A stretch of 63,703 bases of DNA, counting the filler, from Reclinomonas americana ATCC 50394 (Eukaryota): the NCBI GenBank assembly GCA_048213135.1. It is 19 parts of 19 records of this genome, joined end to end, with 100 filler letters (N's around TTAATTAATTAA, not from the genome) between each part and the next. Parts side by side here need not be neighbours in the genome. Positions count along the whole stretch, not along the records: positions 16,121 to 18,258 come from AFZH01019969.1; positions 18,359 to 20,621 come from AFZH01019970.1; positions 20,722 to 22,457 come from AFZH01019971.1; positions 22,558 to 24,529 come from AFZH01019973.1; positions 24,630 to 28,484 come from AFZH01019974.1; positions 28,585 to 29,850 come from AFZH01019975.1; positions 29,951 to 31,766 come from AFZH01019977.1; positions 31,867 to 33,734 come from AFZH01019978.1; 11 more parts are not named here. The stretch is one strand, 5' to 3'. Shown here in pieces: positions 16,121 to 36,365 of the stretch. The notes under the pieces were generated by a model. It saw only the letters and a list, made by a program, of their open reading frames with translations, had not been told where the DNA came from and searched no databases. Position 1 is the first letter of the stretch. Each line of letters starts with the position of its first letter. Made by a program: the position numbers and the translations under genes.

Positions 16121-16459
16121 ACGGTGCGCGTGTGGTCGCTGGCGAGTGGCGAGCTCGAGGAAGTGTGCCGGTTGGAGGGGCACACTGGATGGGTGAGGTC
16201 TGTCGCCATTACTCCCGATGGGCAACACATAGTGAGCGGCAGTGGAGACGAGACCATTCGCGTGTGGTCCTCGCCGCTTGGCCTCGCTCGGCACGAACTC
16301 GATGCCACACGGTTGGCTTTGCGCGCGGTCCACGAGATGCAGGAAGAGGGCGAAGAGGATCCACGGTGCTTGGCGGAGATTGTGCTACGCTGCTTCTTGG
16401 TCGAGGATGCCGAGGTCATTGTTCATCGGTGTTTTACCGACGACAGTCTCCGTTTGTAG
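16121..16459 (+). CDS. WD40-array gene W1 (3' part: last blade plus conserved tail)
   Basis: [18 protein letters not shown]...RVWS followed by the [11 protein letters not shown]...CFLVEDAEV tail. Confidence 0.88.
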
Positions 16460-16518
16460 AAAAGTGAAGGTTCTGTTGAGGGCTTGTTTTCTCTATCTTT
16501 CTCTGCATTCTCATTGTT

Positions 16519-16546
16519 CAAGATAGCCCCGTGAGGTCAGTTGTTA
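16519..16546 (+). promoter_or_regulatory. Conserved intergenic motif CA(A/G)GATRGCCCC-GTGAGGTCA-TTGTTA upstream of WD40 genes
   Basis: Variants recur at about 17887, 30416, 32089, 33397, 35105 and 36474, in both spacer types. Confidence 0.4.
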
Positions 16547-16669
16547 GATGAAAGCAGTAAGCATTCCTGCAGCAGTCTTGATGGTGGGTGGGAGCTCGAG
16601 GCGGAGAAGATGAATTTTCGTGCCAACGAACCACTTTACTTCTCTTCTCTTCGCACGCACGCAAACAAC

Positions 16670-17753
16670 ATGTCTTCACCTCGCCCGTCTCTCTCGTGCA
16701 AGTACTGGGATGGACACACAAGTGAGGTGTTGTCCATCGCCGTCACTCCCGATGGCCACTTCATCGTGAGTGCCAGTGACGACAAAACTGTGCGTGTGTG
16801 GTGCATGAGGAGTGGCGAGGAAGTGCGAAGGTTGCAGGGACACACAGACTTTGTGCGGTCGATTGCCATCACTCCCGATGGTCGCCACATTGTGAGCGGA
16901 GGCTTTGACAAGACAGTGCGTGTGTGGTCTCTGGAGAGTGGGGAGGAGGTGCGACGATTGGTGGGACACACTGACCTCGTGTGGTCTGTCGCCATCACTC
17001 CCGACGGACAACACATCGTCAGTGGTAGCGCTGATGAGACTGTGCGTGTGTGGTCACTGGCGACTGGACGGGAAGTGCGAAGGTTGGAGGGACACACGGA
17101 CTTGGTGCGGTGTGTTGCTGTCACTCCCGATGGGCAGCATGTTGTCAGTTGCGGCGGATTCCTGGATGACACAGTGCGTGTGTGGTCGATGGAGACTGGA
17201 GAAGAGGTGCGACGGCTGGTGGGTCACACCGCCTCCGTGTTGTCTGTTGCCGTCACGCCCGATGGTCTGCATGTGGTGAGTGGGAGTTGGGACAAGATCG
17301 TGCGTGTGTGGTCACTGGCGAGAGGAGAAGAAGTGCGACGGTTTGTGGGTCACACAAAGGCAGTTTTCCTTGTCGCTGTCACTCCTAATGGTCAACACGT
17401 GGTGAGTGGGGGCGACGACAGGACGGTGCGAGTGTGGTCACTGGCGAGTGGCGAGGAAGTGCACCGGTTGGAGGGACACTGGCAAGTTGCTGTCTTCTGT
17501 CGCCGTCGCTCCCGATGGGCAGCGGATTGTGAGTGCAGGCGGTAGAACAGTGCGTGTGTGGTCCTCGCCGCTTGGCCTCGCCCGCCAGGAACTCGATGCT
17601 GCACGGTCGGCTTTGCGCGTGGTGCACGAGATGCAGGAAGAGGGCGAAGAGAACCCACGGTGCTTGGCGGAGATCGTGCTGCGCTGCTTCTTGGTCGAGG
17701 ATGCCGAGGTCGTTGTTCATCGATGCTCTATCGACGACGGTCTTCGGTTGTAG
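16670..17753 (+). pseudogene. WD40-array gene W2, 7 blades plus tail; +1 frameshift near 17485 (real or sequencing error)
   Basis: ATG TCT TCA CCT CGC start; blades in one frame to ~17480, tail in another frame to TAG 17753. Confidence 0.8.
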
Positions 17754-33335: not shown

Positions 33336-33547
33336 AAAAAGTGAAGGCTTTGTTGAGGGCTTGTTTTCTCTACCTTTCTCTGCATTCTCATTGTTCAAGA
33401 TAGCCCCGTGAGGTCAGTTGTTAGATGAAAGCAGTAAGCATTCCTGCAGCAGTCTTGTTGGTGGGTGGCACGACGAGCTCGAGGCGGAGAAGATGAAATT
33501 TTGTGCCCACGAAACCCACTTCTCATCTCTTCGCACACGCAAACAAC

Positions 33548-34736
33548 ATGTCTTCACCTCGCCCGTCTTTCGTGTGCAAGTTCTGGAGCGGACACACAAG
33601 TGAGGTGTTGTCTGTCGCCATCACTCCCGACGGCCAGCACGTGGTGAGTGGCAGTCGTGACAAAACTGTGCGTGTGTGGTGCATGAGGAGTGGACAGGAA
33701 GTGCGACGGTTGGAGGGACACACAGACGTGGTGGNNNNNNNNNNNNNNNNNNNNNNNNNNNNNNNNNNNNNNNNNNNNTTAATTAATTAANNNNNNNNNN
33801 NNNNNNNNNNNNNNNNNNNNNNNNNNNNNNNNNNTCTCTGTCGCCGTCACTCCAGACGGACAGCACATCGTCAGCGGCAGTGCTGATACGACAGTGCGTG
33901 TGTGGTCGCTCGTGACGGGAGAGGAGGTGGGACGGTTTGAGGGGCACACTGCACAGGTGCTATCTGTCGCCGTCACTCCAGGCGGACAACGCATCGTCAG
34001 CGGCGGCGTTGATAAGACAGTGCGTGTGTGGTCATTGGTGACGGGAGAACAATTGCACTTGATGGAGGGCCACACGGACTCGGTGCTGTGTGTTGCTGTC
34101 ACTCCCGACTGTCTGCATGTTGTGAGTGGCGGCGGCCGCTTCCAGGACTTCACAGTGCGTGTGTGGTCGATGGCGACAGGAGAAGAAGTGCGACGGCTGA
34201 AGGGACACACATGGGCGGTGAGCACTGTTGTCGTCACGCCCGATGGTCAGCATGTGGTGAGTGGGAGTTGGGACAAGACTGTGCGCGTGTGGTCACTGGC
34301 GAGTGGAGAAGAAGTGCGACGGTTTGTAGGTCACACGAAGGCAGTTTTCCTTCTCGCTGTCACTCCCAATGGTCAACACGTGGTGAGTGGGGGCGACGAC
34401 AGGACGGTGCGAGTGTGGTCGTTGGAGACTGGCGAGGAAGTGCTACGGTTGGATGGGCACTCTGGCACGGTGCTGTCTGTCGCCGTCGCTCCCGATGGAC
34501 AGCGGATTGTGAGTGCAGGCGACGACAAGATAGTGCGTGTGTGGTCCTCACCGCTTGGCCTCGCCCGCAAGGAACTCGATGCCGCACGGCTGGCTTTGCG
34601 CGCGGTGCACGAGATGCAGGAAGAGGGCGAAGAGAACCCACGGTGCTTGGTGGAGATCGTGGTGCGCTGCTTCCTGGTCGAGGATGCCGAGGTCGTTGTT
34701 CATCGATGCTTCACCGACGACGGTCTTCGTTTGTAG
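33548..34736 (+). CDS. WD40-array gene W7 (spans a linker), at least 7 blades plus tail
   Basis: ATG 33548; continues after the gap to TAG 34736. Confidence 0.85.
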
Positions 34737-35279
34737 AAAACTGAAGGCTTTGTTGAGGGTCGGTGTGTCGCTTCTCCTCTCTCTTCTCTCTCTGTCTGTC
34801 TGTCTCTCTCTCTCTCTCTCTCTCTCTCTCTCTCTCTCTCTCTCTNNNNNNNNNNNNNNNNNNNNNNNNNNNNNNNNNNNNNNNNNNNNTTAATTAATTA
34901 ANNNNNNNNNNNNNNNNNNNNNNNNNNNNNNNNNNNNNNNNNNNNCGTCGTCGTCGTCTCTCTCTCTCTCTCTCTCTCTCTCTCTCTCTCTCTCTCTCTC
35001 TCTCTCTCTCTCTCTCTCTCTCTCTCTCTCTCTCTCTCTCTCTCTCCCTCCCTCCCTCTCTGCTTCTCTCTGTCTCTATTTTGTCTCGCGCCGTTCTCAT
35101 TGCTCAGGATGGCCCCATTAAGGTCACTTGTTATCTGTAAGCAGTAAATATAGTCACGCGGCAGTGGTTGGTGGGCTTGATGTCGTCAATCGAAGGAGGC
35201 GAGTGCACGTGGTCAAGGAGACGAATTTTTGTGCCAAACTCACACTCATCTCTTCTCTTCGCCCGTGCACGCATACACC

Positions 35280-36365
35280 ATGTCTTCACCTCGCCCGTCT
35301 TTCGTGTGTAAGTGCTGGAGCGGACACAGCGATAGTGTGTTGTCCATCGCCATCACTCCCGACGGCCAGCACGTGGTGAGTGGCAGTCGTGACAAAACTG
35401 TGCGTGTGTGGTGCATGAGGAGTGGACAGGAAGAGCGGCGGTTGGAGGGACACACAGACGTGGTGCGATCGGTTGCCGTCACTCCCGATGGACAGCACAT
35501 CGTCAGCGGGGGTGCCGATATGACCGTGCGTGTGTGGTGGCTGGAGAGTGGAGAAGAAGTGCGACGATTGGAGGGTCACACTTATGGGGTGGTTTCTGTC
35601 GCCATCACTCCAGACGGACAGCACATCGTCAGTGGCAGCGGTGACAAGACAGTGCGTGTGTGGTCGCTGGTGACAGGAGAGGAGGTGGGACGGTTGGAGG
35701 GACACACGGACACGGTGCTGTCTGTCGCCATCACACCCGATGGTCACCATGTTGTGAGTGGCAGCGGCATCTTCCAGGACTTCACAGTGCGTGTGTGGTC
35801 GATGGGGACTGGAGAAGAAGTGCGGCGGCTGAAGGGTCACCGCGGGGGAGTGAACACTGTTGCCGTCACGCCCGATGGTCTGCATGTGGTGAGTGGGAGT
35901 TGGGACAAGACCGTGCGCGTGTGGTCACTGGCGAGTGGAGAAGAGGTGCGCCGTATTGTGGGTCACACGAAGACGGTGTATTCAGTTGCCGTCACCCCCA
36001 ATGGACAGCGCGTGGTGAGTGGGGGCAACGATGAGACAGTGCGCGTGTGGTCACTTGCGAGTGGCGAGGAAGTGCACCGGTTGGAGGGGCACTCTGGCAC
36101 GGTGCTGTCTGTCGCCATCACTCCCGATGGGCAGCGGATTGTGAGTGCAGGCGACAGAACAGTGCGTGTGTGGTCCGCGCCGCTTGGCCTCGCCCGCCAG
36201 GAACTCGATGCTGCACGGTCGGCTTTGCACGCGGTGCACGAGATGCAAGAAGAGGGCGAAGAGAATACACGGTGTCTGATGGAGATCGTGGTGCGCTGCT
36301 TCTTGGTCGAGGATGCCGAGGTCGTTGTTCATCGATGCTCTACCGACGATCGTCTGCGATTGTAG
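35280..36365 (+). CDS. WD40-array gene W8, 7 blades plus tail, intronless
   Basis: Complete ORF MSSPRPS...CSTDDRLRL. Confidence 0.92.
   Translation: MSSPRPSFVCKCWSGHSDSVLSIAITPDGQHVVSGSRDKTVRVWCMRSGQEERRLEGHTDVVRSVAVTPDGQHIVSGGADMTVRVWWLESGEEVRRLEGHTYGVVSVAITPDGQHIVSGSGDKTVRVWSLVTGEEVGRLEGHTDTVLSVAITPDGHHVVSGSGIFQDFTVRVWSMGTGEEVRRLKGHRGGVNTVAVTPDGLHVVSGSWDKTVRVWSLASGEEVRRIVGHTKTVYSVAVTPNGQRVVSGGNDETVRVWSLASGEEVHRLEGHSGTVLSVAITPDGQRIVSAGDRTVRVWSAPLGLARQELDAARSALHAVHEMQEEGEENTRCLMEIVVRCFLVEDAEVVVHRCSTDDRLRL

What the first reader, a model, noticed from the sequence alone, without database searches (positions are those of the whole stretch)
16121..36365. Tandem array of eight WD40 genes with HET-E-like hypervariable surface positions
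Seen: 42-aa (126-nt) blades on a near-constant scaffold RLxGHxxxVxSVAVTPDGQHxVSGxxDxTVRVWSLxxGEEV. Variation concentrates in the residues after GH and before SV (TDFVR, TGWVR, ARGVL, TYHVH, TKTVY, FCTVL, TWAVS, RGGVN) and around the D (GFDK, SWDK, SRDN, GDDR). All complete copies have 7 blades. Known: equivalent top-face positions are under diversifying selection in the WD40 domains of fungal HNWD/HET-E non-self receptors. No NACHT domain is present here. Inference: a stand-alone recognition repertoire (immunity or allorecognition) in a protist.
Basis: partly seen in the sequence, partly recalled or inferred. Interest (0 to 1): 0.75.

Follow-up and report, generated by a model that had tools for sequence, protein, structure and literature searches.

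The report
NLR-related WD40 binder gene repertoire
A single-celled flagellate carries this gene cluster as one of many arrays of a family of hundreds to over a thousand small ring-shaped binding proteins; copies differ mainly on the binding face and share one unknown tail, which looks like a home-made antibody-like panel whose targets are not yet known.

Summary
Observation largely confirmed. About eight intronless WD40 genes lie on short gap-joined contigs, in two clusters split by a ~10.4-kb transposon-like insert. Three are complete and intact.

The array is one local clade of a huge family: 1,128 exact tail-motif matches in the assembly, probably counting both haplotypes. The host is a jakobid, and one member elsewhere has an EST. 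Of 104 gap-free genes sampled, 99 have exactly seven blades. All end in an orphan two-helix tail that an E2-like gene in this window also carries.

Variation peaks at blade positions 6, 7, 9, 25 and 27, the HET-E and top-face hotspot sites. These sites change about twice as fast as synonymous sites between paralogs (2.45, CI 2.0-3.1). They are conserved between allele-like pairs (0.46), which argues against allorecognition. A site-specific-rate (FEL-type) test was not significant.

Paralogs swap blades in register. The genome also holds ≥97 NACHT-WD40 NLR-like genes using the same blade pool.

Best reading: an NLR-related intracellular binder repertoire with a constant coupling tail, possibly linked to ubiquitin (inferred, untested). 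The scan noted this family many times before on other DNA of this genome.

The parts
16121..16459 (+). Gene A: 3' end only (part of blade 6, blade 7, tail); cut by contig start
16670..17753 (+). Gene B: full length, 7 blades + tail, frameshifted at the start of blade 7 (~17480); pseudogene or assembly error
18072..18258 (+). Gene C: 5' end (blade 1, start of blade 2), cut by gap
18359..18742 (+). Gene D: blades 6-7 and most of the tail; tail cut by foreign DNA at 18743; may be the 3' end of C
18743..29170 (.). ~10.4-kb interruption with decayed transposon-like ORFs on the minus strand and an imperfect subterminal inverted repeat; no match in copy-B contigs or other fetched loci
   Evidence: (SAP E=0.047); KDZ/Zisupton resemblance is recalled, no Pfam support
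29209..29850 (+). Gene E: blades 1-5, cut by gap
29951..30356 (+). Gene F: blades 6-7 + tail (probably the 3' end of E)
30572..31660 (+). Gene G: intact, 362 aa, 7 blades + tail; positional counterpart in copy B about 94% identical
32256..33335 (+). Gene H: intact, 359 aa; copy B holds a different gene at this position that shares blade 7 at 100%
33548..33734 (+). Gene I: 5' end; with J forms one 7-blade gene matching C5134 gene 3
33835..34736 (+). Gene J: rest of blade 2 to blade 7 + tail
35280..36365 (+). Gene K: intact, 361 aa; AlphaFold2 model = 7-bladed propeller + helices 301-324 and 331-355 (pLDDT 94)
36174..36362 (+). Orphan C-terminal helical-hairpin tail (shown for K; present in every copy that reaches its 3' end)
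59532..60475 (+).
   Evidence: (tail hits family tails, best E 6.8e-9)

Best explanation
The array is one local expansion of a genome-wide repertoire of small cytosolic binders. Each gene encodes one 7-bladed WD40 propeller of the same blade type as the host's NLR sensors, plus a constant two-helix tail.

Shown: fixed architecture; variation at top-face hotspot positions; tandem duplication; in-register exchange of blades between neighbouring paralogs; fast change of the binding face between paralogs but conservation between allele-like copies.

Inferred: each protein binds its own target on the top face. The targets are foreign (phage-, virus- or bacteria-derived molecules met by a bacterivorous flagellate). 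The tail hands the bound target to one shared partner. That partner is most likely the ubiquitin system (about 30-35% on its own), because the only non-WD40 protein found with the tail is an E2-fold protein. It would then work like the expanded F-box/MATH-BTB adaptor families: variable grip, constant handle, target tagged for destruction.
For: 1,128 exact tail-motif matches, 0 in control. 99 of 104 gap-free tail-bearing ORFs have 7 blades, none more. Hot sites 7, 9, 25, 27 match HET-E (PMC1805685 passages) and R1-2, R1, D-1 (PMC3419727 passages); in the model they sit at the start of strand a and in the b-c turn. 572 distinct four-site combinations in 680 blades; W is 21% at site 7 and 14% at site 9 against about 3% expected from base composition. 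Hot-site second-codon-position distance over four-fold distance: 2.45 [2.02-3.07] in 12 paralog pairs and 0.46 [0.17-0.68] in 7 allele-like pairs, binned on scaffold sites only. Scaffold and tail omega 0.22-0.30. Recombination test p=0.0005, synonymous sites only p=0.0025. Nearest blade has the same index in 69 of 84. NLR and stand-alone blades are equally similar to each other (0.671 vs 0.678 and 0.677). An EST-derived protein matches one member at 100% over 116 aa. Tail shared with an E2-fold gene. The genome encodes Skp1 and an Elongin-C-like protein.
Against: With site-specific synonymous rates the pooled hot-site omega is 0.83-0.86, not above 1. Four-fold sites may be constrained or homogenised, which would inflate the ratio; excluding Val codons it falls to 1.2-2.1 by bin, and site 27 alone is near 1. 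Close pairs (≥85% nt) give omega 0.7-1.2 at hot sites. No ligand, no expression data for these copies, no immune phenotype. The tail does not follow the F-box or BC-box pattern cleanly (patterns recalled) and models as two long helices. The E2-like gene scores under Pfam's cut-off (21.9 vs 27 bits), lacks the HPN motif and is a single allele-like pair; it could be a chance fusion. W enrichment may be inherited from the ancestral blade.
Confidence: 0.5

Rival explanations
1. NLR accessory system: the stand-alone propellers are detached NLR sensors that act as co-receptors or decoys, or serve as a library of blade variants that is converted into the NACHT-WD40 receptors.
For: ≥97 NACHT matches and 135 exact Walker-A pattern matches. 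Same consensus and same variable sites in 192 NLR blades. 99 of 192 NLR blades have a stand-alone blade as nearest neighbour; 127 label changes against 172 shuffled. One tail-bearing subfamily is closer to NLR blades (33 of 49). An NLR lies between tail-bearing genes in L133.
Against: Best NLR-to-stand-alone blade identity is 0.92 among 192 x 611 blades, so no recent transfer was seen. The blade tree rests on 72 nt. Purifying selection on the tail (omega 0.24) implies the proteins themselves work. No NLR-type P-loop in this window.
Confidence: 0.17
2. Genomic drift: a duplication-prone gene spread by unequal crossing-over. The scaffold is kept for folding, the top face is simply relaxed, and most copies do little.
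For: FEL-type omega about 0.8-1 at hot sites. Broken copies are common (B, D; 26 of 134 gap-free tail motifs lack 7 in-frame blades, a mix of broken, intron-bearing and spurious matches). The same argument is made for plant F-box genes (PMC3030570 passages). Hotspot diversity is general in repetitive WD40s (PMC5587647 passages).
Against: Relaxation predicts a ratio near 1 at all distances; observed 0.46 in allele-like pairs and 2.45 in paralogs. Local four-fold rate is not raised in direct counts (21 observed vs 24.3 expected). 108 of 134 gap-free motifs sit in intact 7-blade ORFs. Strict 7-blade count and conserved tail.
Confidence: 0.15
3. Non-immune adaptor family: variable propellers bring different host proteins (or prey-derived cargo) to one complex through the tail, for ordinary cell regulation.
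For: Older, intron-bearing, divergent WD40 genes carry the ancestral tail. Hot sites are conserved between allele-like copies. 8 tail relatives exist in the 1.84-billion library, 7 of them not from this species' EST.
Against: Host targets do not usually need hundreds of rapidly diverging paralogs, haplotype-variable arrays or NLR-type blades.
Confidence: 0.12
4. Allorecognition (self/non-self between cells), as for het-e/het-d.
For: The two haplotype-like copies differ in gene content and order: 7 starts in the window against 10 in copy B, and a different gene at the H position.
Against: Hot sites are less, not more, variable between allele-like pairs (0.46). No surface-targeting segment. No effector or NACHT domain.
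Confidence: 0.06

Closest known systems
Podospora anserina HNWD/NWD NLRs (HET-E, HET-D, HET-R); PMC1805685, PMC2873952, PMC12222747, PMC4986451 (passages read)
   Same: 42-codon WD40 units; variable sites 7, 9, 25, 27 flanking conserved 8 and 26 on the top face; repeat exchange between family members.
   Different: No HET or NACHT domain. One propeller with a fixed 7 blades, against repeat numbers that vary widely between isolates. Blades within a gene are only ~60% identical, under the 85% 'high internal conservation' line. Exchange is in register between paralogs, not scrambling within a gene. Hundreds of genes against 10. Constant orphan tail. FEL-type test not significant here.
Moderately/highly repetitive WD40 proteins (Hu et al. 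2017, PMC5587647, passages read); PDB 5yzv PkwA, 2ymu
   Same: Consensus-like blades with DHSW tetrads and diverse hotspot sites; best fold match 5yzv, 42% identity, rmsd 1.2.
   Different: Here a mass, intronless, tandem family in one eukaryote with a C-terminal tail; falls in the 'moderately repetitive' class (0.4-0.7).
The host's own NACHT-pentapeptide-WD40 NLR-like genes
   Same: Same blade consensus, same variable sites, interleaved in a blade tree; sometimes adjacent.
   Different: NLRs have about 12-14 blades when complete, a NACHT and a different C-terminus; none of 34 long NACHT ORF rows (about half cut by the fetch) showed the tail motif.
Expanded ubiquitin-ligase adaptors: plant/nematode F-box and MATH-BTB families (PMC3030570 passages; nematode work recalled), WD40-SOCS-box WSB1/2 and poxviral PRANC (recalled)
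   Same: Variable substrate-binding domain plus constant adaptor segment; lineage-specific tandem birth and death; an LP-x-x-hydrophobic helix start in the tail.
   Different: No Pfam, PDB-sequence or specific fold match of the tail to F-box, SOCS or BTB; binding to Skp1 or Elongin C untested.

Membership tests
WD40 beta-propeller | GH...WD-type repeats folding into a 7-bladed propeller | tested here: met
   Pfam PF00400 x7 in G, H, K; model pLDDT 94, Foldseek E 2e-34 to 5yzv
HNWD/NWD NLR | NACHT domain in the same protein | tested here: not met
   359-362-aa ORFs hold only WD40 + tail; no P-loop in the eukaryotic part of the window
HNWD/NWD NLR | High internal repeat conservation (≥85%) and variable repeat number | tested here: not met
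   Median within-gene blade identity 0.60; 99 of 104 have 7 blades, none more
HNWD/NWD NLR | Variable sites 7, 9, 25, 27 at the top face | tested here: met
   Entropy peaks; numbering from PMC1805685 and PMC3419727; DSSP positions; 3D clustering not measured on coordinates
HNWD/NWD NLR | Positive selection at those sites | tested here: inconclusive
   Shared-rate omega 1.5-2.3 at 7, 9, 25 (site 27: 1.1-1.2) and count ratio 2.45 in paralogs; FEL-type pooled 0.83-0.86; allele-like pairs 0.46
HNWD/NWD NLR | Repeat exchange between family members | tested here: met
   Incompatibility test p=0.0005; mosaic nearest neighbours; 13 of 18 close pairs heterogeneous along the gene at p<0.01
HNWD/NWD NLR | Triggers cell death on non-self recognition | not testable with these tools
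   needs experiment
F-box / SOCS-box cullin-RING substrate receptor | Recognisable F-box, BC-box or cullin-box sequence | tested here: inconclusive
   No Pfam hit for two tails at E≤10; tail profile vs PDB only mTOR at E 1.6; partial resemblance by eye to recalled patterns
F-box / SOCS-box cullin-RING substrate receptor | F-box or SOCS-box fold | tested here: inconclusive
   Model is a two-helix hairpin; best Z 9.0 (rmsd 2.2, 61 aligned) to generic hairpins
F-box / SOCS-box cullin-RING substrate receptor | Binds Skp1 or Elongin C | not tested
E2/UBC (gene at 59532-60475) | UBC fold similarity | tested here: inconclusive
   PF00179 E 1.4e-4, under cut-off; E2s fill the PDB hit list, best E 0.012; atlas UQ_con clusters at 0.89; exon 2 only
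E2/UBC (gene at 59532-60475) | HPN motif and catalytic Cys in register | tested here: inconclusive
   HPN absent; an insertion prevents placing the Cys; may be an inactive E2 variant

The most novel reading that the evidence does not exclude
A free-living jakobid has built an antibody-like intracellular immune repertoire. NLR sensor propellers were grafted, perhaps more than once, onto an old helical tail, amplified to hundreds of genes, and shuffled blade by blade in register. The tail is a new homotypic or adaptor module that couples any bound foreign protein to a dedicated E2-like partner for ubiquitination, without a cullin or NACHT switch.
Probability: 0.2. Interest if true: 0.88.

Novelty: new variant of a known kind. 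Interest (0 to 1): 0.6.

Why it matters
Immune-like diversified receptors in free-living protists are poorly known, and jakobids branch deep in Discoba. A family of hundreds of single-exon, 360-aa binders with about 28 variable top-face residues is easy to clone and screen. It makes testable whether unicellular eukaryotes run large recognition repertoires, and how NLR sensor domains can be detached and rewired to a new output. It is also a natural library of stable, consensus-like propeller binders. The window's array is not special within the family; its added value is the second haplotype-like copy (alleles versus paralogs) and the neighbouring E2-like gene with the same tail.

Tried and rejected
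- Sequencing runs: no RNA holder was listed for 34946-37200; this is no evidence on expression, and no reads were laid.
- Tail searches without a specific hit: Pfam, PDB sequences, ESM Atlas, 5.8-billion protein search among longer proteins with the divergent-tail alignment (0 of 8,000 candidates; weak evidence), Foldseek and VIA-align (generic hairpins only). F-box and SOCS-box structures were not listed, which does not exclude them.
- Other domains in front of the tail: 19 of 20 loci chosen for divergent tails or long ORFs had WD40 upstream and one was at a contig start, so a promiscuous domain was not supported beyond the E2-like gene.
- Recent blade transfer between NLRs and stand-alone genes: none above 0.92 identity in the sample.
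- Binning pairs by total identity is biased by the hot sites themselves; replaced by binning on scaffold sites. In one search the two-rate optimiser failed for several small classes (rows with alpha=beta=1.00, negative LRT); those rows were not used.
- Assembly artefact: rejected, because copies are 70-87% identical, a second collinear copy exists and arrays occur on large contigs.
- Bacterial origin of the array: rejected; 1-16020 is 67% GC and bacterial-like, but the array is collinear with intron-bearing eukaryotic genes in both copies.
- Inverted-repeat search over the insert was swamped by spacers and microsatellites.
- Literature: searches listed no paper on this family (listings only); one search returned none. 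Most subscription papers are outside the library; no supplements were read.
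Full report
Observation. The window is a chain of short contigs joined by 100-nt N spacers; 1-16020 is 67% GC and bacterial-like, the rest 53-60% GC. Between 16121 and 36365 there are seven ATG starts and eleven gene pieces on the + strand. They add up to eight genes if C+D, E+F and I+J are each one gene. G, H and K are intact (359-362 aa, 7 Pfam WD40 stretches). B is frameshifted in blade 7, A is a 3' end, and D's tail is cut at 18743. Contiguous spacers between genes are 210-318 nt.

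A second copy. Contigs C5123-C5138 repeat the region in reverse, with 3-6% substitutions in the single-copy flanks. C5134 spans the F, G, H and J positions in one piece, which supports the contig order there and joins I+J into one 7-blade gene. Several other arrays also come in near-identical pairs, so the assembly probably holds two haplotypes (inference). Copy B has 10 starts. G and K have counterparts at 94% and 90% nucleotide identity, but the H position holds a different gene that shares only the last blade at 100%.

Family size and host. K finds 116 matches among only 113 scored of 3,476 candidates. An exact pattern for the tail gives 1,128 matches and 0 in the control: roughly 560-1,100 per haploid set, pseudogenes included. 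Of 104 gap-free tail-bearing ORFs with a start, 99 have seven blades and none more (the sample mixes best hits and position-chosen loci). The nine full-length genes of this locus form one branch (SH-aLRT 97, quick tree). A tail profile found 8 proteins among 1.84 billion. The best is labelled Reclinomonas americana in EukProt and is EST-derived (that the accession is an EST is my reading of its form); it matches a G000 locus at 100% over 116 aa. The host is therefore a jakobid and at least one member, not from this array, is transcribed.

Variable sites. Numbering the blade L1-E2-G3-H4, entropy peaks at 6, 7, 9, 25, 27. HET-E's selected codons are 7, 9, 25, 27, flanking conserved 8 and 26, in the d-a loop and b-c turn on the top face (PMC1805685, passages; the register also rests on my recall of the HET-E consensus). 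General WD40 hotspots R1-2, R1 and D-1 are our 7, 9, 25 (PMC3419727, passages). In the AlphaFold2 model of K these residues lie just before and at the start of strand a and in the b-c turn; I had no coordinates to measure clustering directly.

Selection. I wrote codon models by hand on 99 genes in disjoint pairs. Scaffold and tail are under purifying selection (omega 0.22-0.30). With one synonymous rate, sites 7, 9, 25, 27 give 2.28, 1.99, 1.95, 1.21 in 18 pairs at 70-85% identity and 0.93, 1.23, 0.69, 0.82 in 18 closer pairs. On blade trees, shared-rate omega is 1.5-2.2 at 6, 7, 9, 25, but with site-specific synonymous rates, the method used for HET-E, the pooled value is 0.83. Direct counts do not show a raised local synonymous rate (21 observed, 24.3 expected), so the high local rate may come from multi-base codon changes. 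Pairing and binning on scaffold sites only, the ratio of hot-site second-position distance to four-fold distance is 0.46 [0.17-0.68] in 7 allele-like pairs, 1.41 [0.84-1.97] in 10, 2.45 [2.02-3.07] in 12 and 1.84 [1.36-2.58] in 14; without Val codons 0.42, 1.16, 2.07, 1.38 (6 more distant pairs fell outside the bins). This pattern fits fast change after duplication followed by conservation. It does not fit uniform relaxation or allele-level hypervariability. Positive selection is likely but not proven.

Blade shuffling. In 69 of 84 local blades the nearest blade in another gene has the same index; several misses come from one mis-indexed broken gene. The best match within a gene is 0.67-0.82, and the nearest gene changes along each gene. 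Nearby informative sites are more compatible than distant ones (0.37 vs 0.52, p=0.0005; synonymous only p=0.0025; 9 genes). Thirteen of 18 close pairs diverge unevenly along the gene. So paralogs exchange tracts in register. HNWD alleles instead gain, lose and rearrange repeats within a gene (PMC2873952, passages).

The tail. It models as an antiparallel two-helix hairpin with an acidic linker; L35, C42, F43, E46, A48 are invariant in 61 sequences. It has no specific Pfam, PDB, atlas or fold match. Divergent, intron-bearing WD40 genes carry an older form. One gene in this window, 59532-60475, joins it to a divergent E2/UBC-like domain; I saw this before reading that the scan had noted it. The genome has Skp1 and an Elongin-C-like gene. 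No binding could be tested.

Link to NLRs. The sampled genes read N-terminal domain, NACHT, pentapeptide repeats, WD40. Their 192 blades share the consensus and variable sites of 611 stand-alone blades, with equal mean identity within and between classes and a best cross-class match of 0.92. On a short-sequence tree the classes interleave (127 changes; shuffled mean 172, minimum 163). Common origin is shown; recent exchange is not. That the NLR-type propeller was grafted onto the older tail is an inference.

Mechanism. Shown: architecture, family size, variable face, in-register exchange, purifying selection on scaffold and tail. Likely: each paralog has its own ligand. Inferred: the ligands are foreign and the tail recruits one common effector, with ubiquitin machinery the best guess. 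I put 0.5 on defence binders with a constant coupling tail, 0.17 on NLR accessory or donor roles, 0.15 on drift (as argued for plant F-box genes, PMC3030570 passages), 0.12 on non-immune adaptors and 0.06 on allorecognition.

Novelty. These are not HNWD NLRs (no NACHT, low internal identity, fixed blade number), but their binding face works like the HET-E sensor. Hotspot diversity in repetitive WD40s is known (PMC5587647, passages). Searches listed no paper on such a family in jakobids; the library lacks most subscription papers. The scan has reported this family on many other pieces of the same genome. Verdict: new variant of a known kind, interest 0.6.

Noticed in passing
window 1-16020: Three contigs at 67% GC with bacterial-type genes (GNAT-like ORF, ABC-type P-loop at ~7497); probably a co-cultured bacterium inside the assembly.
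   Followed up: partly
window 18743-29170: Transposon-like insert cutting gene D's tail: decayed minus-strand ORFs with SAP-like (E 0.047), SWIM-like and Cys-cluster motifs, and a ~23-nt imperfect inverted repeat near both ends; resembles KDZ/Zisupton elements (recalled); not found in copy B.
   Followed up: partly
window 59532-60475 and L072: The two copies of the E2-like gene differ at 12 of 283 aligned residues but at only 2 of 152 four-fold sites: relaxed or fast protein change; small numbers.
   Followed up: partly
window 36700-38060: Several imperfect direct repeats of a few hundred bases directly after gene K, also in copy B (C5131-C5132); each includes a short ATG-started stretch; unexplained.
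   Followed up: no
L119, L122, L123, L126, L129, L131, L134, L136: A tail-bearing subfamily with higher internal blade identity (0.77-0.83 nt) whose blades are nearest to NLR blades in 33 of 49 cases: possibly a second, younger capture from an NLR.
   Followed up: partly
L062 (G000:C51:272500-281500): Short tandem fragments holding only the tail's 3' end, repeated every 100-350 bases between full genes.
   Followed up: no
L023, L060-L066: A subfamily with a shorter tail ending right after the last conserved Cys; explains the '1 TGA' rows.
   Followed up: partly
window 40740-58803: Intron-rich genes: exocyst/VPS51-like (Sec5 E 0.006), HPP transmembrane, MutL/PMS2 C-terminus, and an LRR-like plus ephrin-receptor-like Cys-rich gene; a diverged paralog of the last (65% nt) lies in C5127.
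   Followed up: partly
L143:1498-1869: Elongin-C-like gene in a jakobid genome; two Skp1-like genes also found (L139/L140, L141/L142).
   Followed up: partly
whole window: Every gap is 44 N + a 12-base all-frame stop spacer + 44 N, so gap lengths carry no distance information.
   Followed up: yes
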